A program made the position numbers and the translations under genes. DNA of 64,000 nt from Escherichia phage LPEK22, in sequence record OK283619.1, one strand, 5' to 3'. Below are positions 1 to 26,214 of this stretch, one piece after another; the first letter of the stretch is position 1, and every line of letters starts with the position of its first letter. The notes beneath the pieces were generated by a model. It was not told the DNA's origin, did no database searches, and saw only the letters and a list, made by a program, of their open reading frames with translations.

Positions 1-3000
1 CCTTCCCCTACGCGTATTGGGGATTCCGTTACTATTTGTGATGCTTATGGGAAATTTGCCACTTACCCATTGACCGTGTCTCCTTCTGGAAATAATTTGT
101 ATGGCTCCACTGAAGACATGGCTATAACAACTGATAACGTATCAGCAACGTTCACTTGGTCTGGACCTGAACAAGGTTGGGTTATCACATCCGGCGTCGG
201 TCTTGGCCAAGGCCGTGTCTACAGTCGTGAAATCTTTACACAAATTTTGGCGTCTGAAACAAGTGCTGTCACTCTCAATACTCCACCAACAATCGTGGAC
301 GTGTATGCTGACGGAAAACGTCTTGCGGAATCCAAATATTCACTAGATGGGAATGTAATCACTTTCAGTCCTTCTTTGCCAGCCAACACAGAACTTCAGG
401 TGATTGAATATACTCCGATTCAATTGGGTAATGGCGGTGGTTCTGGTTCTTCTACGATTACCTGGGTCTATAATGGGGGTTCAGCGATTGGCGGTGAAAC
501 CGAAATCACGTTAGACATCGTTGTTGATGATGTTCCGGCCATTGATATAAACGGAAGTCGCCAGTATAAAAATCTGGGGTTCACATTCGATCCATTAACC
601 AGTAAAATCACTCTTGCGCAAGAACTGGATGCAGAGGATGAAGTTGTTGTAATTATCAATGGAACGCCAAACATCTATAATCAAATTGATTATACTTTGC
701 GGGAAGTGGCTCGTGTAACCAATGTTAAAGATACAGAGGTCGTTTATTTTAGTGTTGGTGCTGTGTTAAGCGGGTATAAAGTTATCTACGATAAAATAAC
801 ACAGAGATCATATTTTATTCCAGAGTTACCGACTGGAACCACGGCAGTCAGCCTTAGTTCTTCGGCTGTGCTTGTACATTCTGCTGGTAGTGTTGATCTG
901 GGCGCATTAGCTGTATCTCGTGAAGAATATGTTACCTTGGCTGGGACATTTGATTCTGGTGCTGTCATCAATACTAAAAATGAATTACTCACCCATACTG
1001 ATGGAAAGTATCGTTGGGATGGTACACTTCCTAAAACTGTAGCTGCTGGCTCAACACCTGCAACAACTGGAGGCGTTGGTTCGGGAGCGTGGTTGAGTGT
1101 TGGTGATGCCACTGCCCGCCAGTGGGTAGCTAATAATTATATCAATAGTAAATTCGAGAAGTTTGGGTCTTTCTTGCAAGGTTCAGTTTTAACCACCAAC
1201 GAGCAAGCTCTTGTTGATTCAAGTGGTCTTTTCTGGGTTAAATATGGTGCTATACAAAGTGGTGGTTATACAGTAGCGCCGGGAACTGTTCCAGACTATC
1301 CCGATTTTTACTGTGTTGGATATTTAACAGATTATGATTGGCAGTCTGTTACAAACTGGGGTGCTGATAACAACTATTCTATCGCAGATAAGATCGGTGT
1401 AGACGCGGTCGATGCTATAAACCTCGCAGGTTATCATGCGGAGAAACGTGCGGAACTATTCGGATCCCAGCAAGTTGTCATGGTTCCTGCTGGCACTTAT
1501 CTGTTGGATAAAACGACTCTTGTGGAAGGCACGGCGCATGGTCTGACTATTTATCGTAATCAGGAAGTTATGATTTTTCTTCGCAACAACGTTACTTTCA
1601 TCGGCGATGGCGACGCAACGTTACTGTATGTTGCCGATGGTGTTGTTGAGCGCAATAAGGAAAACGGGGGCACTAAAGGCTTTGTAGTTTTCGGTGATGG
1701 TATTCGTGAAATTCAGAACGCATATGTCCACGATATGCTAATTGATGAAAATGGTGACAATAACCTTGTCCCGCCATTGAACTGGTCTGGAGCACAAGCT
1801 CATTGTCCAGCAGTAGCTTGTTACGAAGGTAGTAATGGTGTGACTGTTTCTGGAGTTAACGTCAAGAATGCTCCTGGTGCAAACGTAATGGTATTCCAGG
1901 AAGCTCAGGCAGCGTTCAACAGCTACAATACGCGTGTAGAGAATTGCAACTTCTATCGCGTTGCTGACGCTGTGACTGGAAACAGTAACCTAATAGACCA
2001 CTCATCAATAAGAATTCATTCCGATGGCTACGTTATAAATAACGTTAAATGTATCCAGCCAACCATGTCAGACATGTGTACGGTATTTGAGTGTCATGGT
2101 AATGGGATCGTTGATGGATGCATCACCAAAAAAGCTCGCTACCCATTCCTGAAGGCTAACGACGGTGCTACATCGACATCTATAGTCACCTTCACAAATA
2201 ACGTCTGTGAGGACGCAGGTAGTGCTTTGGTTCTGGATACCGTACCTAACGTTACAACTGTTGCCAGATTTATTGGTAATACTGTAACGCTACGATCAGA
2301 AAAGCAAGTTATCGGGTATCCTAATACTGCGGCATTCACAACACAGCAGCCGTCTGTTTTGTCATCTGACCCAACCACTATTAATGCAATTATTTACTCT
2401 GCAAATAATAACATATTGCAAAAAAACAGAGCCGCAGATTGGACAACTGAACAAAAAGCTGCAAACGTTGCTTATGACCTGGACTATTTCAAAGAAGTTG
2501 TTAGTGAAAATAACACTTTCTCAGGTTTTTGGGGGTGTGTTCGCTTGGGTAAACAAAAAACAGGTGCTACTTTCAACAGCAATGACTCTTTTGTCTCTTG
2601 CGGGACCAACGGTTCACCTCAATTATCAGACAACACAGCCATAAGGTTTACCAATAAATTTGCCAACGATTATCTTGTTCACCTTGATGAAATGCATATT
2701 AAATGGAATATGACAAAATGTCAGTTTGGTGGTGTCCTGGGTTTATTGCAACAAGCAGCAGGAGTGACTGTTGGTGTTGTGCAATTCACTGCTGATATTA
2801 AAACAGATAGATGGATGCATCCAGCGCTTGGGATAGCTCCACTATCCGTACAGGATTACTACTTCAACATTGATGTATACAGTGATGTGAATACCAGTGA
2901 ACCTTTATACGGATACGCTGGTATTCATGGGCAAATTAATGTTGACTCGCCAACTCAACCATATGTTAAACAATTTTACAAATACAAACCAAACACCCAG

Positions 3001-3168
3001 AATGGATGGTGGTTTAAAGGCATTTTAGCAACTGACACAACTTCTGTTCCTGACAGGCCTTTTGGTAATGCGTCTGGTGACAGATATGATGTTATTGCTG
3101 GGGCATCAAATATTTTCGGGTATCGACATAATGGTACAACATGGGATGCAATGAAATTTACATCATAG
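1..3168 (+). CDS. Tailspike protein, 5'-partial (reading frame open to window start; track start at 70 is a TTG). Long N-terminal extension, then the shared anchor module, then a C-terminal domain.
   Basis: Frame has no stop from nt 1. Residues about 236-370 (VKDTEVVYFSVG...YRWDGTLPK...GAWLSVGDA) are about 70 percent identical to the N-termini of the ORFs at 3272 and 8300. Beta-helix or depolymerase fold of the C-terminal part is assumed, not shown. Confidence 0.75.
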   Translation, partial: PSPTRIGDSVTICDAYGKFATYPLTVSPSGNNLYGSTEDMAITTDNVSATFTWSGPEQGWVITSGVGLGQGRVYSREIFTQILASETSAVTLNTPPTIVDVYADGKRLAESKYSLDGNVITFSPSLPANTELQVIEYTPIQLGNGGGSGSSTITWVYNGGSAIGGETEITLDIVVDDVPAIDINGSRQYKNLGFTFDPLTSKITLAQELDAEDEVVVIINGTPNIYNQIDYTLREVARVTNVKDTEVVYFSVGAVLSGYKVIYDKITQRSYFIPELPTGTTAVSLSSSAVLVHSAGSVDLGALAVSREEYVTLAGTFDSGAVINTKNELLTHTDGKYRWDGTLPKTVAAGSTPATTGGVGSGAWLSVGDATARQWVANNYINSKFEKFGSFLQGSVLTTNEQALVDSSGLFWVKYGAIQSGGYTVAPGTVPDYPDFYCVGYLTDYDWQSVTNWGADNNYSIADKIGVDAVDAINLAGYHAEKRAELFGSQQVVMVPAGTYLLDKTTLVEGTAHGLTIYRNQEVMIFLRNNVTFIGDGDATLLYVADGVVERNKENGGTKGFVVFGDGIREIQNAYVHDMLIDENGDNNLVPPLNWSGAQAHCPAVACYEGSNGVTVSGVNVKNAPGANVMVFQEAQAAFNSYNTRVENCNFYRVADAVTGNSNLIDHSSIRIHSDGYVINNVKCIQPTMSDMCTVFECHGNGIVDGCITKKARYPFLKANDGATSTSIVTFTNNVCEDAGSALVLDTVPNVTTVARFIGNTVTLRSEKQVIGYPNTAAFTTQQPSVLSSDPTTINAIIYSANNNILQKNRAADWTTEQKAANVAYDLDYFKEVVSENNTFSGFWGCVRLGKQKTGATFNSNDSFVSCGTNGSPQLSDNTAIRFTNKFANDYLVHLDEMHIKWNMTKCQFGGVLGLLQQAAGVTVGVVQFTADIKTDRWMHPALGIAPLSVQDYYFNIDVYSDVNTSEPLYGYAGIHGQINVDSPTQPYVKQFYKYKPNTQNGWWFKGILATDTTSVPDRPFGNASGDRYDVIAGASNIFGYRHNGTTWDAMKFTS

Positions 3169-10613: not shown

Positions 10614-10644
10614 AAAAACCCCGCTTCGGCGGGGGTTTTATTTC
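10614..10644 (+). terminator. Rho-independent terminator after the fourth tailspike gene
   Basis: ccccgcttcggcggggg hairpin plus ttttatttc. Confidence 0.8.
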
Positions 10645-10666
10645 TATCCTGTTTGTTGGCTGTATA

Positions 10667-10684
10667 CTAAATATCTCTATAAAT
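10667..10684 (+). promoter_or_regulatory. Late-promoter-like motifs (ctaaata and tataaatg) upstream of the 1612-aa gene
   Basis: tactaaatatctctataaatgg. Confidence 0.4.
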
Positions 10685-10705
10685 GGCACTCTATGGAGCA
10701 TCAAA

Positions 10706-13700
10706 ATGCAATCTACAAATTTAAACCGTCGCCCGTATTGGGATGACTGGAATCCTGGGAAACGTTTTTCACGGATTCTTTTTCGTCCGATGCCTATCAA
10801 GGTTCAGACTCGAGAACTGAACCAGATGCAGACTATTCTTCAGGATCAAATTGAAAAACTAGGCAACCATTTGTTCAAAGATGGTTCTATGGTTATCCCT
10901 GGCGGTCTGACGATTACCAATGCCGCAGTCTCTTTGAAATTCACTTTGGCTGGTGGTACTGAATTCACTGATCTGGAAGGTATTTCTGAACTCTACGTTT
11001 TGGGGAAGGACAATAATGCCAAAGCACGTGTGTTGTCTCTTGAACGTGATCTGTCTGCTCCTGATACGATGCTGGCTATCCTTGAGATGACTGAAGCGGG
11101 TAATGCTGACGGATTCCATGTTAACGATAATCTGTATTTCCAGACTTACGACGTGAATGATAATTTCATTCGTATTGGTTATGGTATCGCAGCTGCAGTA
11201 ACTGGTTCTATCGTCGCTCGTATGACGAAAGGCGTTTACTTCATTCGTGGGATGTTCCTAGACGTTGATGACGCAACTCTTATCGTTGATAAAACTTCTA
11301 ACATCACTTCCCACCGCATCGGATTTAAAGTCACCGAAACTATTGTCACCGAAACAGAAGATGAATCCCTTTATTCAAATGCTCAGGGAACGATTAACTC
11401 CAAAGCCCCAGGCGCTCATCGTCTTCGAATAGATCTGGTCTTATCTCGATTTGATTATGACGCCGTGGTTGAAGATTTTGTTGAACTGGCCAAAGTTCGT
11501 GATGGTAAAATCCAGTCTATGGTGACTCAGTCCACCTATAATATTCTGGAAGACACGTTGGCCCAACGGACGTATGAAACCAACGGCGATTACAACGTTT
11601 CAACGCACCAGATCGACATCCGCGAACACCTGAAAGTCAATAACAATGGCGGGGTATTCAATGCCGCTGATGGCGGTGACGAGAGCAAATTTGTTTCTGT
11701 GATGAAACCAGGCATCTCCTATGTTCGCGGTCGACGTATCGAAAATGTCGGGGAAGAACTGGTTATTGTCGACAAGGCGCGGGATACCGATGTCCTGAAT
11801 AACACCCCTGTTGCGGTGGCCACAGGCAATTATCTGGTCACTAAGAATTCTAAAGGTGTGCCAGTGATATCCCGCACCGTTCGATACAAATTACTGAATG
11901 CTTCAGGCGTTACCCAGGCTACAGCACTTTGTATATCAGCTGAACGTAATTCAACAGAATTTCGTCTGTATATGCGCGACCTGGTCGTTACTGGCGATGC
12001 ATCCACTATCACCAAAGTGTCTTACGAAGAAAGCGGTATCACCATGTTCTCTGCTGAACTGGAATCCAATCAGTTTAACCAGAGTTCTATGATAGATCTG
12101 ATCTTCTCTCTTCCGGTATTCGGTGTCAAGACTTTAGCACCAACTGGCTCCGTGGATATCAACTACACTGTTCTCAGAACGTATAAAGTGACGTTGGACA
12201 ACAGCGGCGCGGGTTCTATTTCTGCTCCATTGGGATATAGTTTTTCCCCAGAATTTTCGTTGTACTCTGCAGCGAAATCTGATGGTTCTGAAGCGCAGTT
12301 CGATATCTCTGGTTCTTTGTCTTTGACTGGTTCTCCGGTCGGTTCGGCGCTGCAGATTTCTCTGGGCAGTGGTAATGCTAACCAGTCAATCAATTTGCTG
12401 GCGCTGATGATTCGTACCACGGCCACAATCAAAACGAAGACCATCACTGAAACAACTGAAACAGTGACATTCACCTCGCAGACTAGCCGTCCTTTGGCGA
12501 ATCACGATGGTTGGAAATTGGTGTCGGTCAAAAACGATACTGGCGCAGACGTGACCTCCAGCTTCGTCCTAGATGGCGGACAGCGTGATGCAGGGTATTA
12601 CAAGTCTAACTTGTTATCCAGCGCTGGAGCAATCTCAGGGACGTATACAGTGGTGTATCAATACTTCGCCCACAGTTCCGGTGATTTCTTCTCTGCTGAT
12701 TCGTATACTTCGATGGATTATAAAGATATCCCGAATTATACATCTTCTACATCAGGCGCGGTGTACGGCCTGGCAGATAGTTTGGATTTCCGTCCGAAAA
12801 TCACCAACGGAACTTCTGACACAGATATGGTTCGTCCAAACACTGCAGTTATTCTGGACACAGAATATTATCTGCCGCGTATCGACGCGATTTATCTGGC
12901 AGACAACGGCGTGTTTGGTGTGGCTCGTGGCATCAGTTCTAATAATCTGGCTTCTCCAGCAATCCCAGCGAACGCCATGCGTTTGTATGAATTGTTGATC
13001 CCGCCGTATACACCGAATATTGATGATATCCAAATTCGAACTATTGATAATCGTCGTTATACAATGCGCGATATCGGTAAACTGGAAACCCGTATTTCCA
13101 ATGTTGAATACTATACCTCTCTGTCACAGCTGGAATCTTCAGCGATGACACAGCAAGTGTTCGACCCCATTACGGGTAATCCTCGTTTCAAAAATGGTAT
13201 CGCAGCTGATCCGTTCAAAGACTTCCGGTTGATTGATGACTTGTCTGAAGATTGGATGGGTTCTATCGATACCGAAAACGGACGTCTGCGCCCGTTTGTA
13301 CAACAAAACGTTGTTGACATGACTCCGGTTGGCTGGAACAAAGTGATGGATGGGATGGTGGTTTGTAATTACACGCCTGAAATCTCGGTGAACCAAGAAT
13401 ATGCGACGACGACGATCAACGTTAACCCGTATGCAGTATTCAATTGGGAAGGTTTCTTGAAGATTAACCCGACCACAGACTACTGGTTCGAAAACTATTA
13501 TGTTGCGCCGCGTATTATCAATGAAACGATCAACACCCGTGGTACTGTACAAGAAGGTTCAGTGTACGGAACATGGCGTACTGTTTCTGTTTCTGATCGT
13601 GTTTGGGAACCGCATGGTGCTGGTGGTGTGTGGTGGGGATATCGTTACCGCACGACTGTTTCTGCCCGTGATGTCACCACATATACATACACGGACAAAA

Positions 13701-15544
13701 CAACCACGACCATGACTGGTGAACAGATTGTGGAGACGCAAGTTATCCCATACATGCGCGAGATCGATATTTCTTTCGACGCATCTGGGCTGCGACCTTT
13801 CACTCGTATGTATGCGTTCTTCTCTGGTCGTGACGTCAATCTGTATTGCAAACCGAATGGTGGTAATTTCGGAGACCCAATCACCACTGATGCCAATGGT
13901 GCTGTTAAAGGTGTATTCCGCGTTCCACAGAACGATACAATCAAGTTCAACACAGGCGACAACGTGTTCCGCTTAACGGATAGCCCTGTTGACAGTAAAT
14001 CTGCGGATGATACACTGACCAATGCAGAAATTGTTCATAAATCTTTCGGTAAGAAACAAGGTATTCAAAAGACCTTTGTCAACACTCGTGTCCTGGGTTA
14101 CACTGCTAGTACTCGCACCGAAACTTCTACTTCTGAAGTGGTTGTTGATCAATGGCGTGATCCGATTGCCCAATCGTTTATGGTGGCGACTAAGATTGGC
14201 GGCGAGTATATCGAAGGCGTGGAAGTATTCTTCTCTACCAAGTCACGTGATGTTCCGATCACTCTGGAAATTCGCGAGATGGAGAATGGCTTACCTTCTC
14301 ATACAGTCATTACTCGTAAAACTTTGAACCCGTCTGAAGTGACGATCTCTACAGACTCTTCCGGCGGTACGAAGTTCACCTTTGATTATCCGGTGTATCT
14401 GCAAGCATCGACTGAGTTTGCTATCGTTTTGTTGGCGAATACTCAGGATTACAACGCGTATATCGCGGAAATGGGCAAGAAAAACCTTCTGTCCAACGAA
14501 TATATCGCCAAACAACCGTATACAGGGGTGTTCTTCACTTCTTCAAACGGTTCTACATGGTCTCCAAACCAAATGGCTGATATGAAATTCCGCATATATC
14601 GTTGTAACTTCGCTGCGGGACAGAACGTTGTAACATTTGATCCGAAGCTCGGGCCAAAACAACGTCCGTTGGGATTGAACACTCTGAACTGCGTAAGCGG
14701 GTCTTCTGTTGTGACTGTGTTTGCAACTGGTCATGGTTTGGTTGCTGGGAACAATGTTACTCTTTCTGAATTGACAGGCGGTTGTGGCTTTACTCCTGAA
14801 CAACTTAACAAAACGTTTACTGTGACAGATGCGAGCTATACTTCATTCAAGATTGACGTCGGTACGGCAGCAGACAGCAATGGACAAATCGGTGGAGATA
14901 ATGCTTCTTTCTTGGGCAATTATCTAGTTGATATGTTCTATGCCAGCGTTACCAATTCGGCTCTGGAAGGTTCAATTCTGAAATTGGAATACCGTTATCG
15001 CGATGCCACTTCAAATTCTATGTCTGATTGGGCTGAGTTTGAAACTGACACTGACGTGGCATTGCCGACTGAAGGTATCTATCGCCAGGTCGGGGATTTC
15101 CAAATCCGAGCCACCATGACGCGTAGTGAAAACAACGTGTACACTGCTCCAATGATTGATGGCGATGACCTGAGCGTAATCTTCAACTCATACGGTGTGG
15201 ATCCATTTGAAGATGTCTTCAAATACGTGACAAAGGACATCGGATTTGATAATCCGTGTTCTACTGTGAAGTTGTTCTTTGGTGCAATGCTCCCATCTCA
15301 GTCTTCGATGAAGGTGCAGGTGAAACTTCTACGAGCAGGGCAAGAGATGGATAGTGTGGCTTGGGAAGACGTCACCCCAACTTCGCCTCTGGTTAACGAC
15401 GGTTCCACATTCTTTGAATATGAGTATGACAAGACTGTGGCGAGCAATAACCCGTTTGTTGGCCTGAAAGTCCGAGCGCTTGTACGGGGGAACCGCGTTG
15501 CTCCTCCATCATTCAAAGACTTCCGTCTTATTGCTCTGGCATAA
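10706..15544 (+). CDS. Very large virion-associated structural protein (1612 aa), function unassigned
   Basis: Uninterrupted 4.8-kb ORF, ATG with GGAG RBS, late-promoter-like ctaaata and tataaatg upstream. T/S/N/G-rich fiber-like composition. Sits between the tailspikes and the neck genes. Confidence 0.6.
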   Translation: MQSTNLNRRPYWDDWNPGKRFSRILFRPMPIKVQTRELNQMQTILQDQIEKLGNHLFKDGSMVIPGGLTITNAAVSLKFTLAGGTEFTDLEGISELYVLGKDNNAKARVLSLERDLSAPDTMLAILEMTEAGNADGFHVNDNLYFQTYDVNDNFIRIGYGIAAAVTGSIVARMTKGVYFIRGMFLDVDDATLIVDKTSNITSHRIGFKVTETIVTETEDESLYSNAQGTINSKAPGAHRLRIDLVLSRFDYDAVVEDFVELAKVRDGKIQSMVTQSTYNILEDTLAQRTYETNGDYNVSTHQIDIREHLKVNNNGGVFNAADGGDESKFVSVMKPGISYVRGRRIENVGEELVIVDKARDTDVLNNTPVAVATGNYLVTKNSKGVPVISRTVRYKLLNASGVTQATALCISAERNSTEFRLYMRDLVVTGDASTITKVSYEESGITMFSAELESNQFNQSSMIDLIFSLPVFGVKTLAPTGSVDINYTVLRTYKVTLDNSGAGSISAPLGYSFSPEFSLYSAAKSDGSEAQFDISGSLSLTGSPVGSALQISLGSGNANQSINLLALMIRTTATIKTKTITETTETVTFTSQTSRPLANHDGWKLVSVKNDTGADVTSSFVLDGGQRDAGYYKSNLLSSAGAISGTYTVVYQYFAHSSGDFFSADSYTSMDYKDIPNYTSSTSGAVYGLADSLDFRPKITNGTSDTDMVRPNTAVILDTEYYLPRIDAIYLADNGVFGVARGISSNNLASPAIPANAMRLYELLIPPYTPNIDDIQIRTIDNRRYTMRDIGKLETRISNVEYYTSLSQLESSAMTQQVFDPITGNPRFKNGIAADPFKDFRLIDDLSEDWMGSIDTENGRLRPFVQQNVVDMTPVGWNKVMDGMVVCNYTPEISVNQEYATTTINVNPYAVFNWEGFLKINPTTDYWFENYYVAPRIINETINTRGTVQEGSVYGTWRTVSVSDRVWEPHGAGGVWWGYRYRTTVSARDVTTYTYTDKTTTTMTGEQIVETQVIPYMREIDISFDASGLRPFTRMYAFFSGRDVNLYCKPNGGNFGDPITTDANGAVKGVFRVPQNDTIKFNTGDNVFRLTDSPVDSKSADDTLTNAEIVHKSFGKKQGIQKTFVNTRVLGYTASTRTETSTSEVVVDQWRDPIAQSFMVATKIGGEYIEGVEVFFSTKSRDVPITLEIREMENGLPSHTVITRKTLNPSEVTISTDSSGGTKFTFDYPVYLQASTEFAIVLLANTQDYNAYIAEMGKKNLLSNEYIAKQPYTGVFFTSSNGSTWSPNQMADMKFRIYRCNFAAGQNVVTFDPKLGPKQRPLGLNTLNCVSGSSVVTVFATGHGLVAGNNVTLSELTGGCGFTPEQLNKTFTVTDASYTSFKIDVGTAADSNGQIGGDNASFLGNYLVDMFYASVTNSALEGSILKLEYRYRDATSNSMSDWAEFETDTDVALPTEGIYRQVGDFQIRATMTRSENNVYTAPMIDGDDLSVIFNSYGVDPFEDVFKYVTKDIGFDNPCSTVKLFFGAMLPSQSSMKVQVKLLRAGQEMDSVAWEDVTPTSPLVNDGSTFFEYEYDKTVASNNPFVGLKVRALVRGNRVAPPSFKDFRLIALA

Positions 15545-15596: not shown

Positions 15597-15845
15597 ATGC
15601 GTGGAGTGAAAGTACAGGGGCACGCATCCATGTTGAGAAGCAGTTCTTGCCCTGGCGCGATTATTTGCACCGATCACGCCGCTGGCATGGCTGCATTGCA
15701 AGCCCGTCAACGCAATGAAACCCGTGAAGCCACCATTGTTGAACAATCAAACCAGATATCTAATCTGGAGGCGACAATCAAAATGATGGCCGAAAAGTTG
15801 GGGATCGAAATCCCCGAAGGAGGTCAGAATGGCGACGCAAGCTGA
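15597..15845 (+). CDS. Hypothetical protein (82 aa)
   Basis: ATG at 15597 with aggat RBS, downstream of a hairpin. Track start at 15558 is an alternative start codon. Confidence 0.35.
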   Translation: MRGVKVQGHASMLRSSSCPGAIICTDHAAGMAALQARQRNETREATIVEQSNQISNLEATIKMMAEKLGIEIPEGGQNGDAS

Positions 15846-16909: not shown

Positions 16910-16913
16910 GAGA

Positions 16914-16939
16914 AGGCGGGTTATCCCGCCTTTCTTTTT
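16914..16939. terminator. Bidirectional rho-independent terminator between convergent genes
   Basis: aaggcgggttatcccgcc hairpin followed by tttcttttta. Confidence 0.7.
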
Positions 16940-17150
16940 ATAACTTGATGTCGCGTCCGGAAGGATCTGAATTTGCTAGAATATAACCATCAACCACGTT
17001 CTTTTCGTCCCACCATTCAATAAAATCATTTCCCTTTTCGCCTTTGATAAGACCCACAATGTTATATGAACCATCGGCGATTTTAGCATCTACACAGATA
17101 ATTCTCACACGCCTTCCGTCACGAGTTTCTTTAATATCTTCAACCTTCAT
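16938..17150 (-). CDS. Hypothetical protein (70 aa), antisense to the structural operon
   Basis: ATG on minus strand with good RBS (gagga, 9 nt upstream). Ends at the bidirectional terminator. Confidence 0.45.
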   Translation of the reverse strand: MKVEDIKETRDGRRVRIICVDAKIADGSYNIVGLIKGEKGNDFIEWWDEKNVVDGYILANSDPSGRDIKL

Positions 17151-17181
17151 TTATCAATTCCTCAAAAGAATTAATGATTGA

Positions 17182-17188
17182 CTAAATA
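17182..17188 (+). promoter_or_regulatory. Late-promoter-like motif upstream of the gp14-like gene
   Basis: gactaaatacc. Confidence 0.45.
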
Positions 17189-17211
17189 CCTTCAAAATTG
17201 AGGGTAAAGTC

Positions 17212-21428: not shown

Positions 21429-21431
21429 TCA

Positions 21432-21438: not shown

Positions 21439-21480
21439 TCTTTCAAATTGAGCGAAACTCTACCGAGAAGGAATAACATT

Positions 21481-23434: not shown

Positions 23435-23893
23435 ATGATATACGCATACAAAATTGAAACGATAACTAATGGAAAGGTCTACATCGGTGTGACCAATCAC
23501 CCACAACGAAGATATGATCAGCATTTTGCGAATGCTTTTCATCATGGAGTCCAAAGTGAATTGTATGATGCTATGCGTAAGTATGGAACATCTGGATTTA
23601 CTTTCGTTGTAATTGCTCAGACCGATGAAGTCCATAAATGGGAATTAGAGAAGCAACTCATCGCTCAATATAATTCTTATGAGATGGGTTACAACATGAA
23701 TAAAGGCGGTAATGATGGAAGTCATATGCTGGGTAAAACTGCAGCAAAATTGACATCCACAGGTGAACACATTGGTCTTGTTTCTCTCATAGATCCCCGT
23801 TGGGAATTGTGTGAAATCGAACCTGTTTCAAGTAATGTTCATCATGGTTTCGATCTTTCTTCCATGAAGATTAAAAGATTGACGACTAATTAG
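23435..23893 (+). CDS. Free-standing GIY-YIG homing-endonuclease-like protein (152 aa)
   Basis: N-terminal IYAYKIETITNGKVYIGVTNHPQRRYDQH carries the GIY...YIG...R...H core. Inserted between the sheath and tube genes, downstream of a terminator. Confidence 0.7.
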   Translation: MIYAYKIETITNGKVYIGVTNHPQRRYDQHFANAFHHGVQSELYDAMRKYGTSGFTFVVIAQTDEVHKWELEKQLIAQYNSYEMGYNMNKGGNDGSHMLGKTAAKLTSTGEHIGLVSLIDPRWELCEIEPVSSNVHHGFDLSSMKIKRLTTN

Positions 23894-26207: not shown

Positions 26208-26214
26208 AGTTCAA

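What the first reader, a model, noticed from the sequence alone, without database searches (positions are those of the whole stretch)
10706..15544. Unassigned 1612-aa ORF between the tailspike array and the neck genes
This is the largest gene in the window. It carries late-promoter-like motifs and a T/S/N/G-rich fiber-like composition, and sits where T4 has gp12 and wac. Its N-terminus (RRPYWDDWNPGKRFSRILFRPMPIKVQTRELNQMQ) matched nothing I could place. It may be a central fiber, a tailspike-scaffold hub, or a decoration protein.
Basis: inference. Interest (0 to 1): 0.4.

Follow-up and report, generated by a model that had tools for sequence, protein, structure and literature searches.

The report
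VriC, a tripod-like baseplate protein
The "unassigned" 1612-residue gene is the well-known, conserved VriC/VrlC protein of Vi01-like (Ackermannviridae) Salmonella phages, a full-length relative of the "tripod" baseplate protein solved in Staphylococcus phage 812, so it is an ordinary, already catalogued virion gene whose exact role in this phage family is still only inferred.

The parts
10619..10642 (+). Intrinsic terminator ending the TSP1 transcript (CCCCGC-TTCG-GCGGGG followed by a T run)
   Evidence: 6 G-C pairs, loop of 4, T tail; sequence.
10666..10673 (+). Late-promoter-like box ACTAAATA, 32 nt before the start codon. A TATAAAT follows at 10678-10684.
   Evidence: 7 copies, all on the + strand, against 1.84 expected; 0 of 100 shuffles reach 7; five of the copies lie 21-33 nt upstream of the start of the ORF that follows. 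Promoter function is inferred, not shown.
10695..10698 (+). Ribosome-binding site GGAG, 7 nt before the ATG
   Evidence: Read directly from the sequence.
10706..15544 (+). vriC/vrlC coding sequence, 1612 aa plus stop; DUF4815 family, homologue of the tripod baseplate protein
10709..10933 (+). aa 2-76: conserved N-terminal signature (PY.DD..P.K.F..ILF.P....Q.RELNQMQ) and a predicted helix at aa 32-56, taken here as the first 'spine' helix. Aligns to tripod residues 1-72.
   Evidence: 36% identity, E 2e-14; invariant residues P10 Q34 R36 E37 Q40 Q42 Q48; helix in the model.
10934..11212 (+). aa 77-169: insertion 1, an all-beta segment with no counterpart in the tripod protein; poorly conserved among distant homologues
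   Evidence: no match to the tripod; strands, pLDDT about 80-87; 14-17% identity among distant homologues.
11213..11788 (+). aa 170-361: conserved core, aligns to tripod residues 73-243. Includes a predicted helix at aa 281-293, taken here as the second spine helix.
11789..12478 (+). aa 362-591: region holding insertions 2 and 3 (about aa 362-454 and 502-591). These are extra beta segments around a short matched island (aa 455-501, tripod 250-290).
12479..14095 (+). aa 592-1130: conserved DUF4815 core plus downstream beta-sandwich domains, aligning to tripod residues 291-787. Includes the long helix at aa 787-815, taken here as the third spine helix. The segment aa 818-911 is predicted with low confidence as a monomer.
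   Evidence: (DUF4815 best stretch 582-930).
14147..14647 (+). aa 1148-1314: the best-conserved domain (DP.AQSF motif). Aligns to tripod residues 788-954, which is probably the tripod's 'leg' domain. Cwp84-like lectin / PHR beta-sandwich fold.
14720..14950 (+). aa 1339-1415: insertion 4, a small beta domain (V.V....HGL..G..V..SGA.GGNGI motif) absent from the tripod. It also occurs on its own, or repeated, in other large proteins.
   Evidence: Pfam Phage_spike_2 matches only below its cut-off (E 0.005-0.03). Phage endosialidases are weak structural hits to the 1051-1612 model as a whole; I could not localise which part of the model they match. Modular occurrence.
14951..15541 (+). aa 1416-1612: C-terminal all-beta module, aligning to tripod residues about 969-1146 (the tripod's C-terminal region, which holds its anchor and hook domains). 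The last 110 aa or so also end many shorter proteins.
   Evidence: probability 91, E 1.2e-6 for this piece alone; pLDDT above 90; CBM-like hits to the 1051-1612 model.
15597..15845 (+). 82-aa 'virion structural protein' gene directly downstream. No terminator lies between it and vriC, so it is probably co-transcribed.
   Evidence: phrog_4322, E 2e-47; annotation; one search shows no strong terminator until 16912.
16912..16943 (+). Next strong intrinsic terminator, after the gp13-like neck gene; probable end of the transcription unit that starts at the 10666 box
   Evidence: 9 pairs, 6 G-C, T tail. That it ends this transcription unit is an inference.

Best explanation
The gene encodes VriC (also called VrlC), the Ackermannviridae member of the DUF4815 family of baseplate proteins. 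It is a full-length, collinear homologue of the 'tripod' protein (gp119) of Staphylococcus phage 812.

Shown here:
- Family membership by sequence, profile and predicted fold.
- An architecture of tripod plus four inserted beta segments.
- Lectin-like and CBM-like folds in the C-terminal third.
- Conserved position between the baseplate/receptor-binding genes and the neck genes, in relatives down to about 31% identity.

From the literature: a near-identical protein is abundant in purified virions.

Inferred by analogy with phage 812 and A511:
- The protein forms trimers held on the periphery of the baseplate. Probably these are the downward-pointing 'prongs' seen on Vi01-like phages.
- Once the tailspikes have cut through O-antigen or capsule, the lectin-like leg and C-terminal domains contact a conserved surface glycan such as the LPS core.
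- The trimers re-orient and refold during baseplate opening. This fixes the contracted baseplate on the cell and helps couple surface contact to sheath contraction.

The name 'virulence-associated' is historical and says nothing about function.
For: Identity of the gene. It is 99.8% identical over its full length to Salmonella phage Se_EM1 'VriC'. 232 phage records match at the DNA level, and 231 of them cover at least 80% of the query.

Family. Pfam DUF4815 scores 206.9 bits against a cut-off of 30. VriC and the Kayvirus tripod hit the same four PHROGs: 358, 877, 5986 and 17266.

Solved relative. The only PDB sequence match is the phage 812 baseplate DUF4815 chain 9euf_0, at E 8e-52. That 1152-aa protein is gp119, the tripod. 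This follows from Kayvirus gene order: 1021 aa, then 173 aa (BW3TFN family), then 1152 aa, 52 aa, 639 aa, 123 aa and 458 aa, matching arm scaffold, arm segment, tripod, RBP1, coupler and RBP2 in PMC13433997.

Profile comparison. hhalign of the VriC family against the tripod gives probability 100 and E 3e-71, aligning VriC 6-1607 with tripod 1-1146. The alignment is collinear from end to end. The C-terminal 197 aa alone still match (probability 91, E 1e-6).

Synteny. In two distant relatives the order is gp6, wedge protein, variable genes, DUF4815 gene, a small gene, gp13, gp14, gp15.

Virion presence. Sajous1 gp140 gave 311 spectra. The VrlC homologue is abundant in the PhiM12 proteome, and the A511 homologue was immunolocalised to the baseplate.

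Prior hypothesis. The 2024 Ackermannviridae review already proposes that VriC forms the prongs.
Against: - No structure or immunolabelling of an Ackermannviridae baseplate was found in the papers searched. Location, copy number and identity with the prongs are therefore inferred.
- No homologue of the phage 812 arm scaffold, which docks the tripods, was detected among the three baseplate genes upstream of the tailspike cluster in the close relative aagejoakim. The attachment site is unknown and may differ.
- Trimerisation was not modelled.
- The host is Gram-negative, so the peptidoglycan binding proposed for the tripod hook cannot apply at the cell surface. No LysM match was detected by Pfam in VriC or in the tripod.
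- Sequence conservation is even along the protein, with no variable tip of the kind typical of receptor-binding proteins. VriC is about 84% identical between phages of Salmonella, Klebsiella, Dickeya and E. coli. This fits either a conserved ligand or a purely structural role.
Confidence: 0.75

Rival explanations
1. VriC is the platform that carries the branched tailspike complex (a 'tailspike-scaffold hub'). In this view the anchor domain of TSP4 binds to VriC trimers rather than to a wedge protein.
For: - The gene is directly adjacent to the TSP cluster in all Ackermannviridae.
- In A511, immunolocalisation suggested that the receptor-binding protein gp108 is bound to the VrlC homologue.
- In contracted phage 812, a fiber domain of the outer tripod contacts RBP2.
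- The baseplate partner of the TSP4 anchor domain is not identified in the CBA120 TSP4-N paper.
Against: - The N-terminal XD domains of TSP4 mediate binding of TSP1-3, and the paper describes no role for VriC in forming the complex (PMC8825819).
- VriC homologues occur in many phages that have no tailspike array, such as cyanophages, rhizophages and Herelleviridae.
Confidence: 0.1
2. VriC is a central tail fiber, needle or spike on the tail axis that controls DNA release.
For: - The protein is large and all-beta, and the gene lies in the tail region.
- The review speculates that the prongs might control DNA ejection like the P22 needle.
Against: - The solved homologue is a peripheral trimer present as 12 complexes on the baseplate arms, not on the axis.
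- A distant relative that carries the same gene also encodes a separate gp5-type central spike.
- No match to gp5 or gp27 families, and no predicted coiled-coil needle, was found.
Confidence: 0.03
3. VriC is a head or neck decoration, a whisker protein equivalent to T4 wac.
For: Only the gene's position just upstream of the neck genes.
Against: - No match to a fibritin family was found, and the models show no long coiled coil.
- The homologues are located in the baseplate in phage 812 and A511.
Confidence: 0.02
4. VriC is an enzyme (a polysaccharide depolymerase) or a genuine bacterial virulence factor, as its name suggests.
For: - Database names include 'virulence-associated protein'.
- There are weak structural hits to phage endosialidases.
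Against: - No catalytic family was detected.
- The other fold matches are non-catalytic lectin and CBM sandwiches.
- The depolymerase activities reported for Klebsiella phage vB_KpnM-20 were found in genes of the variable region flanked by vrlC, not in vrlC itself.
- From my own knowledge, the name comes from the vrl locus of Dichelobacter nodosus and was never tied to a function.
Confidence: 0.02

Closest known systems
Tripod protein gp119 of Staphylococcus phage 812 (Kayvirus, Herelleviridae); PDB 9EUF/9EUI/9EUJ, PMC13433997. [quoted passage not shown]
   Same: - Same Pfam family (DUF4815) and the same PHROGs.
- Collinear alignment over the whole length, from the conserved N-terminus to the C-terminus.
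- Three predicted helices at aligned positions, which I take to be the tripod's spine helices.
- CBM-like and Cwp84-like lectin domains in the C-terminal part.
- A virion structural protein encoded next to the baseplate and receptor-binding genes.
   Different: - VriC is 460 aa longer, through four inserted beta segments at about aa 77-169, 362-454, 502-591 and 1339-1415.
- Only about 26% identity in the aligned parts.
- The host is Gram-negative, so the proposed peptidoglycan-binding role of the hook cannot be the same.
- No detectable arm scaffold protein (812 gp117) next to it. A gp8/BW3TFN-like gene precedes the DUF4815 gene in a distant relative, but none was detected in Kuttervirus.
- Copy number, inner and outer positions, and refolding are unknown for VriC.
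VriC/VrlC genes of other Ackermannviridae (ViI, CBA120, Det7, S117, Sajous1, AV101, KpS110, Limestone-type phages)
   Same: The same gene. It is 98.5-99.8% identical to the best-matching Salmonella kutterviruses and about 84% identical in phages of Klebsiella, Dickeya and E. coli. It has the same position flanking the TSP cluster.
   Different: Nothing of note. The window copy is an ordinary allele.
VrlC proteins of T4-like cyanophages, pelagimyophages, rhizophages (PhiM9/PhiM12), Caulobacter phage Cr30 and Stenotrophomonas phage Moby
   Same: They share the region corresponding to aa 1 to about 1310 (tblastn 26-34% identity). They have the same synteny next to the host-recognition cluster and the gp13/gp14 genes. 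They are abundant virion proteins.
   Different: tblastn matches in these phages end at about aa 1300-1390, and their insertions differ. In one search the full 1600-aa architecture is matched only in Ackermannviridae and Vibrio phages. One search adds Ralstonia phage RSP15 and many uncultured relatives.
T4 gp12 short tail fiber (positional and possibly functional analogue)
   Same: The gene occupies the same interval, between the gp10-like protein (here TSP4) and the neck genes. The proposed role, secondary binding to the cell surface under the baseplate, is similar.
   Different: There is no sequence or fold relationship; searches gave no gp12 match. The architecture is globular and multi-domain rather than a slender fiber.

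Membership tests
DUF4815 / VrlC / tripod baseplate protein family | Pfam PF16075 (DUF4815) above the gathering score | tested here: met
   206.9 bits against a cut-off of 30, in three stretches because of insertions. The reference tripod scores 684 bits over the whole model.
DUF4815 / VrlC / tripod baseplate protein family | Collinear homology to a structurally characterised tripod protein over the full length, including the N-terminal signature and the C-terminal module | tested here: met
   hhalign probability 100, E 3e-71, aligning 6-1607 with 1-1146. Block map. N-terminus 36% identical. Leg domain E 4e-33 and C-terminal module E 1e-6 when tested alone.
DUF4815 / VrlC / tripod baseplate protein family | Predicted fold matches the solved tripod structure | tested here: met
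DUF4815 / VrlC / tripod baseplate protein family | Component of the purified virion | not testable with these tools
   From the literature only: Sajous1 gp140 (98.9% identical) gave 311 spectra. VrlC is abundant in the PhiM12 proteome.
DUF4815 / VrlC / tripod baseplate protein family | Located at the baseplate periphery as trimers docked on an arm or wedge protein | not testable with these tools
   Shown for phage 812, and baseplate location shown for A511. No Ackermannviridae structure was found. No arm scaffold homologue was detected upstream.
DUF4815 / VrlC / tripod baseplate protein family | Gene lies in the baseplate / receptor-binding module | tested here: met
   The gene lies between the tailspike array and the neck genes in the window. 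The same order, gp6, wedge protein, variable genes, DUF4815, gp13-gp15, holds in distant relatives.
DUF4815 / VrlC / tripod baseplate protein family | LysM-like 'hook' at the C-terminus (feature described for the phage 812 tripod) | tested here: inconclusive
   The C-terminal module is homologous. Pfam finds no LysM in VriC or in the Kayvirus tripod, and the VriC model is all-beta there.
Ackermannviridae tailspike proteins (TSP1-4) | Tail_spike_N head domain, gp10-like XD domains or a beta-helix catalytic domain | tested here: not met
   None was found in VriC at E up to 1. Three of the four neighbouring genes match Tail_spike_N in Pfam (TSP2 does not), TSP3 also matches the P22 tailspike family, and all four hit tail spike/fiber PHROGs.
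T4 gp12 short tail fiber / wac fibritin | Sequence or fold similarity to gp12 or fibritin | tested here: not met
   No such hit appeared in Pfam, PHROGs, the PDB sequence search or the fold searches. Only the position in the genome is shared.

The most novel reading that the evidence does not exclude
VriC trimers are the six 'prongs' of Vi01-like phages and act as the secondary, irreversible receptor-binding and trigger module, functionally equivalent to T4 gp12. After the tailspikes strip the O-antigen or capsule, the lectin-like leg domain and the C-terminal CBM-like module would bind a conserved LPS-core or outer-membrane glycan. The trimer would then undergo a tripod-type refolding that opens the baseplate. 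If so, one ancient tripod switch is shared by myophages of Gram-positive bacteria, Gram-negative bacteria and cyanobacteria, adapted here by four inserted domains.
Probability: 0.35. Interest if true: 0.45.

Novelty: already known. Interest (0 to 1): 0.2.

Why it matters
For the scan, this resolves an "unassigned giant ORF" into a catalogued gene, so it should not be carried forward as a discovery.

For phage biology, a modest point remains. VriC is the most conserved large tail protein of a family used in biocontrol and diagnostics, yet its location and ligand are still untested. The end-to-end homology with the recently solved phage 812 tripod gives a concrete model that can be tested. The domain map given here (four insertions, a lectin-like leg, a modular C-terminus) tells experimenters which fragments to express and which density to look for in a baseplate map.

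Tried and rejected
1. The exact T4 late promoter TATAAATA occurs only 3 times in the window, at chance level, and none is upstream of the gene. It was replaced by the ACTAAATA box.

2. I looked for the docking partner, the phage 812 arm scaffold or arm segment, among the three baseplate genes upstream of the TSP cluster in the close relative aagejoakim. The 593-aa protein is gp6-like. The 284-aa protein belongs to Pfam Baseplate_wedge. The 396-aa protein matches nothing useful. No arm scaffold homologue was found.

3. I tested whether the small gene after vriC (82 aa) is the counterpart of the 52-aa gene after the Kayvirus tripod gene. They fall in different PHROGs, 4322/473 against 1074, so no link is supported.

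4. A LysM or peptidoglycan-binding signature at the C-terminus was not detected by Pfam in either protein.

5. Pfam Phage_spike_2 for aa 1351-1421 scores below its cut-off (15-17.5 bits against 25), so it is treated as unproven.

6. Residue boundaries for the tripod domains could not be obtained. No supplement is held, and the text gives no ranges. My naming of VriC domains after tripod domains is therefore approximate.

7. I searched for a published Ackermannviridae baseplate structure or a paper linking 'tripod' and VriC. None was found in the library.

8. I looked for a variable receptor-binding tip by windowed conservation. None stands out.
Full report
**1. The observation**

The ORF at 10706..15544 (+) is real. 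It starts with ATG, encodes 1612 aa and has GGAG 7 nt upstream. It is the longest ORF in the window.

An intrinsic terminator (10619-10634 plus a T run) closes the preceding tailspike gene.

The exact T4 late box TATAAATA is not upstream of the ORF. ACTAAATA is present at 10666-10673. It is one of seven copies in the window against 1.84 expected, and none of 100 shuffles reached seven. All seven are on the + strand. Five of them lie 21-33 nt before the start codon of the ORF that follows, the one at 21431 lies 9 nt before a TTG, and the one at 26214 has no start nearby. The 'late-promoter-like motif' is therefore real as a motif, but it lies in front of the gene, not in it.

T+S+N+G is 31.8%. 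That resembles the four tailspikes (31.5-36.1%) and exceeds terminase, portal and sheath (22-28%).

Upstream are four tailspike genes (Tail_spike_N, P22 tailspike and tail-spike PHROGs). Downstream are an 82-aa virion protein, a 113-aa protein, two T4-type neck proteins and a gp15 homologue. The synteny claim, that the gene sits where T4 has gp12 and wac, holds.

**2. What the window is, and what the gene is called**

The gene is 99.8% identical in DNA to Salmonella phages Se_EM1 and Se_EM3 and 99.3% identical to SFP10 and S117. It is present in 232 phage records. In those records it is annotated 'virulence-associated VriC protein', 'VrlC protein', 'phage structural protein' or 'hypothetical protein'.

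The closest annotated relative examined, aagejoakim, is a Kuttervirus of the Ackermannviridae and has the same gene order.

The Ackermannviridae literature uses vriC as the conserved landmark flanking the tailspike cluster (PMC8432352 and PMC11721090). The gene is therefore not unassigned in the databases. Only its function is unsettled.

**3. Family membership**

- Pfam places the protein in DUF4815 (206.9 bits, cut-off 30).
- PHROGs places it in families 358, 877, 5986 and 17266.
- A search of the large protein collection found over 1000 relatives. These include about 120 full-length proteins of roughly 1600 aa, down to 31% identity at 100% coverage, on contigs up to about 177 kb.
- tblastn against phage genomes found 1708 records. 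They include Synechococcus and cyanophages, Staphylococcus, Bacillus, Listeria and Enterococcus (Herelleviridae), rhizophages, Vibrio, Caulobacter, Stenotrophomonas and Xanthomonas phages.
- The shared core is aa 1 to about 1313. In one search, full-length matches are limited to Ackermannviridae and Vibrio phages. One search adds Ralstonia phage RSP15 and many uncultured relatives, and the C-terminal 300 aa recur mainly in proteins of similar length.

**4. The solved relative**

The only PDB sequence match is the DUF4815 chain of the Staphylococcus phage 812 baseplate (9euf_0, 1152 aa, E 8e-52).

In the Kayvirus phiIPLA-RODI the 1152-aa gene lies in this order: 1021 aa, 173 aa (Pfam BW3TFN), 1152 aa, 52 aa, 639 aa, 123 aa, 458 aa. 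That is the order arm scaffold gp117, arm segment gp118, tripod gp119, RBP1 gp121, coupler gp122 (124 aa in the paper) and RBP2 gp123 in Binovsky et al. (PMC13433997). The chain is therefore the tripod protein.

A 53-sequence profile of the VriC family aligns to it with hhalign probability 100 and E 3e-71, pairing VriC 6-1607 with tripod 1-1146. A global alignment is collinear end to end.

The aligned blocks, and the segments with no tripod counterpart, are:

| VriC residues | Tripod residues | Note |
|---|---|---|
| 2-76 | 1-72 | conserved N-terminus |
| 77-169 | none | insertion 1 |
| 170-361 | 73-243 | conserved core |
| 362-454 | none | insertion 2 |
| 455-501 | 250-290 | short matched island |
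| 502-591 | none | insertion 3 |
| 592-1130 | 291-787 | DUF4815 core and beta-sandwich domains |
| 1148-1314 | 788-954 | leg-like domain |
| 1339-1415 | none | insertion 4 |
| 1416-1612 | 967-1151 | C-terminal module |

Two pieces were tested on their own. The leg-like domain gives E 4e-33, and the last 197 aa give probability 91 and E 1e-6.

It is 36% identical to the tripod N-terminus.

**5. Predicted structure**

With the 53-sequence alignment, AlphaFold2 gave pLDDT 79 for aa 1-1130 and 85.6 for aa 1051-1612.

The N-terminal part is mostly beta. It has three helices (aa 32-56, 281-293 and 787-815) at the positions aligned with the tripod, and I take these to be the tripod's spine helices. 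The region aa 818-911 is low-confidence as a monomer.

Foldseek against the PDB found phage 812 baseplate chains as the only hits below 1e-3 for the N-terminal part (5e-22, 1.7e-14 and 1.6e-13). They were also the best hits for the C-terminal part (5e-16, with TM 0.53 normalised by query length, to the pre-contraction chain). Tandem CBM22 followed at 6e-4.

- PHR domains, and several CBM families including CBM61.

These are the same fold classes that the phage 812 paper reports for the tripod base, fin and leg domains, and that the Deep-Blue/Vp4 paper reports for its 'tail fiber/VrlC' proteins.

**6. Mechanism**

In phage 812, twelve tripod trimers sit on six baseplate arms. Their flap loops bind docking loops of the arm scaffold. 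On attachment the outer tripods rotate by about 170 degrees. The base, fin and leg domains move by tens of angstroms. The anchor and hook domains are proposed to extend toward the cell wall. Tripod-tripod contacts stabilise the contracted baseplate, and changes in the tripods trigger release of the central spike.

By homology I infer that VriC forms peripheral baseplate trimers that face the cell surface and take part in the baseplate switch. The 2024 Ackermannviridae review had already suggested, from in-silico resemblance to A511 and phage 812 proteins, that VriC may form the 'prong-like structures' under the baseplate.

Conservation is even along the protein. VriC is about 84% identical across phages of Salmonella, Klebsiella, Dickeya and E. 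coli, whereas the neighbouring tailspikes are the variable host-range determinants. If VriC binds anything, it should be a conserved surface component such as the LPS core. This part is inference.

These steps are not shown for this phage family: trimer state, copy number, docking partner, ligand and refolding.

**7. Rival explanations**

*Tailspike scaffold.* The N-terminal XD domains of TSP4 mediate binding of TSP1-3, and TSP4's anchor domain is inferred to bind the baseplate (PMC8825819). The partner of that anchor domain is unknown, and an A511 precedent places the RBP next to the VrlC homologue. I keep this rival at about 0.1.

*Central fiber or needle.* The homologue is peripheral, and a distant relative that carries the same gene has a separate gp5-type spike.

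*Head or neck decoration.* Only gene position speaks for it.

*Enzyme or virulence factor.* No catalytic family or fold was found. The depolymerases of Klebsiella phage vB_KpnM-20 map to the genes flanked by vrlC, not to vrlC.

**8. Context in distant relatives**

In a 148-kb contig (P0078) and in Ralstonia phage RSP15 (P0054) the order is gp6, wedge protein, variable genes, the DUF4815 protein of about 1600 aa, a small gene, gp13, gp14, gp15, terminase, sheath, tube and portal.

In the first of these, the gene just before the DUF4815 gene matches T4 gp8 and also BW3TFN (36 bits, cut-off 27). BW3TFN is the family of the Kayvirus arm segment protein that precedes the tripod gene. This hints that the 'arm segment then tripod' gene pair is old. 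In Kuttervirus, the genes upstream of the tailspike cluster showed no arm scaffold homologue and no BW3TFN match.

**9. C-terminal modules**

A full scan of 1.84 billion representative proteins with aa 1314-1612 found 202 proteins at E up to 1e-3. Most are VrlC-like proteins of 1570-2400 aa that carry the module at their C-terminus.

The first 100 aa or so of the query (which covers insertion 4) and the last 110 aa or so also occur separately. Sometimes they are repeated, and sometimes they form the C-terminal end of proteins of 120-800 aa. So they behave as separable modules.

**10. Verdict**

The gene is the already known VriC/VrlC, a DUF4815, tripod-type baseplate protein. Its presence in virions is published for a 98.9%-identical protein.

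Novelty is 'already known', and interest is low. What remains open, and is now well framed by the phage 812 structure, is where VriC sits on the Ackermannviridae baseplate, what it binds, and whether it undergoes the tripod-type rearrangement.

Noticed in passing
window 1-3168: The first tailspike gene (TSP4-type, gp10-like N-terminus) is cut by the left end of the window. Frame 1 is open from base 1, and residues from 70 onward align to positions 136-1167 of phrog_23412. The listed '70..3168 TTG' start is an artefact of the ORF finder.
   Followed up: yes
window 3231, 5441, 10666, 17181, 21431, 26214, 27432 (all + strand): ACTAAATA occurs 7 times against 1.84 expected. Five copies lie 21-33 nt upstream of the start of a late structural gene. 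The copy at 21431 lies 9 nt before the listed TTG of the ORF at 21448 (matching the sheath gene of aagejoakim), and the copy at 26214 has no start nearby. It looks like this phage's late-promoter box, of the CTAAATA type rather than T4's TATAAATA.
   Followed up: partly
window about 16910-17210, compared with L001 18233-19221: The close relative aagejoakim carries an extra minus-strand gene of about 710 bp (aagejoakim_14) between the two neck genes. The window lacks it. It may be a mobile insertion, but it was not examined.
   Followed up: no
L005 (GCA_033721355.1, JAWWAS010000001.1, 148,459 bp): A contig deposited as 'MAG: Nitrosopumilaceae archaeon' encodes a 1668-aa VriC homologue. Around it is a complete T4-like set: gp5, gp25, gp6, gp8, gp13, gp14, gp15, terminase, sheath, tube and portal. 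It is a myophage genome, either mis-binned or, less probably, a virus associated with that archaeon.
   Followed up: no
L005 18836-22520: In the same contig the large terminase appears as two genes. The first (866 aa) carries a weak LAGLIDADG_3 hit next to Terminase_6N, which suggests an intein or a homing-endonuclease insertion.
   Followed up: no
L005 8630-9952: The gene directly upstream of the DUF4815 gene matches both T4 gp8 (64.7 bits) and BW3TFN (36 bits, cut-off 27). BW3TFN is the family of the Herelleviridae arm segment protein that precedes the tripod gene. This may link T4 gp8 to the Herelleviridae baseplate arm.
   Followed up: partly
L006 8566-9906 (Ralstonia phage RSP15): A radical-SAM protein gene sits immediately upstream of the VriC homologue, inside the tail and baseplate module. 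The pelagimyophage paper also mentions radical-SAM cassettes in the host-recognition cluster.
   Followed up: no
window 23435-23893: A 152-aa ORF lies between the sheath and tube genes. It corresponds to the 'putative GIY-YIG endonuclease' of aagejoakim and is probably a homing endonuclease inside the tail operon.
   Followed up: no
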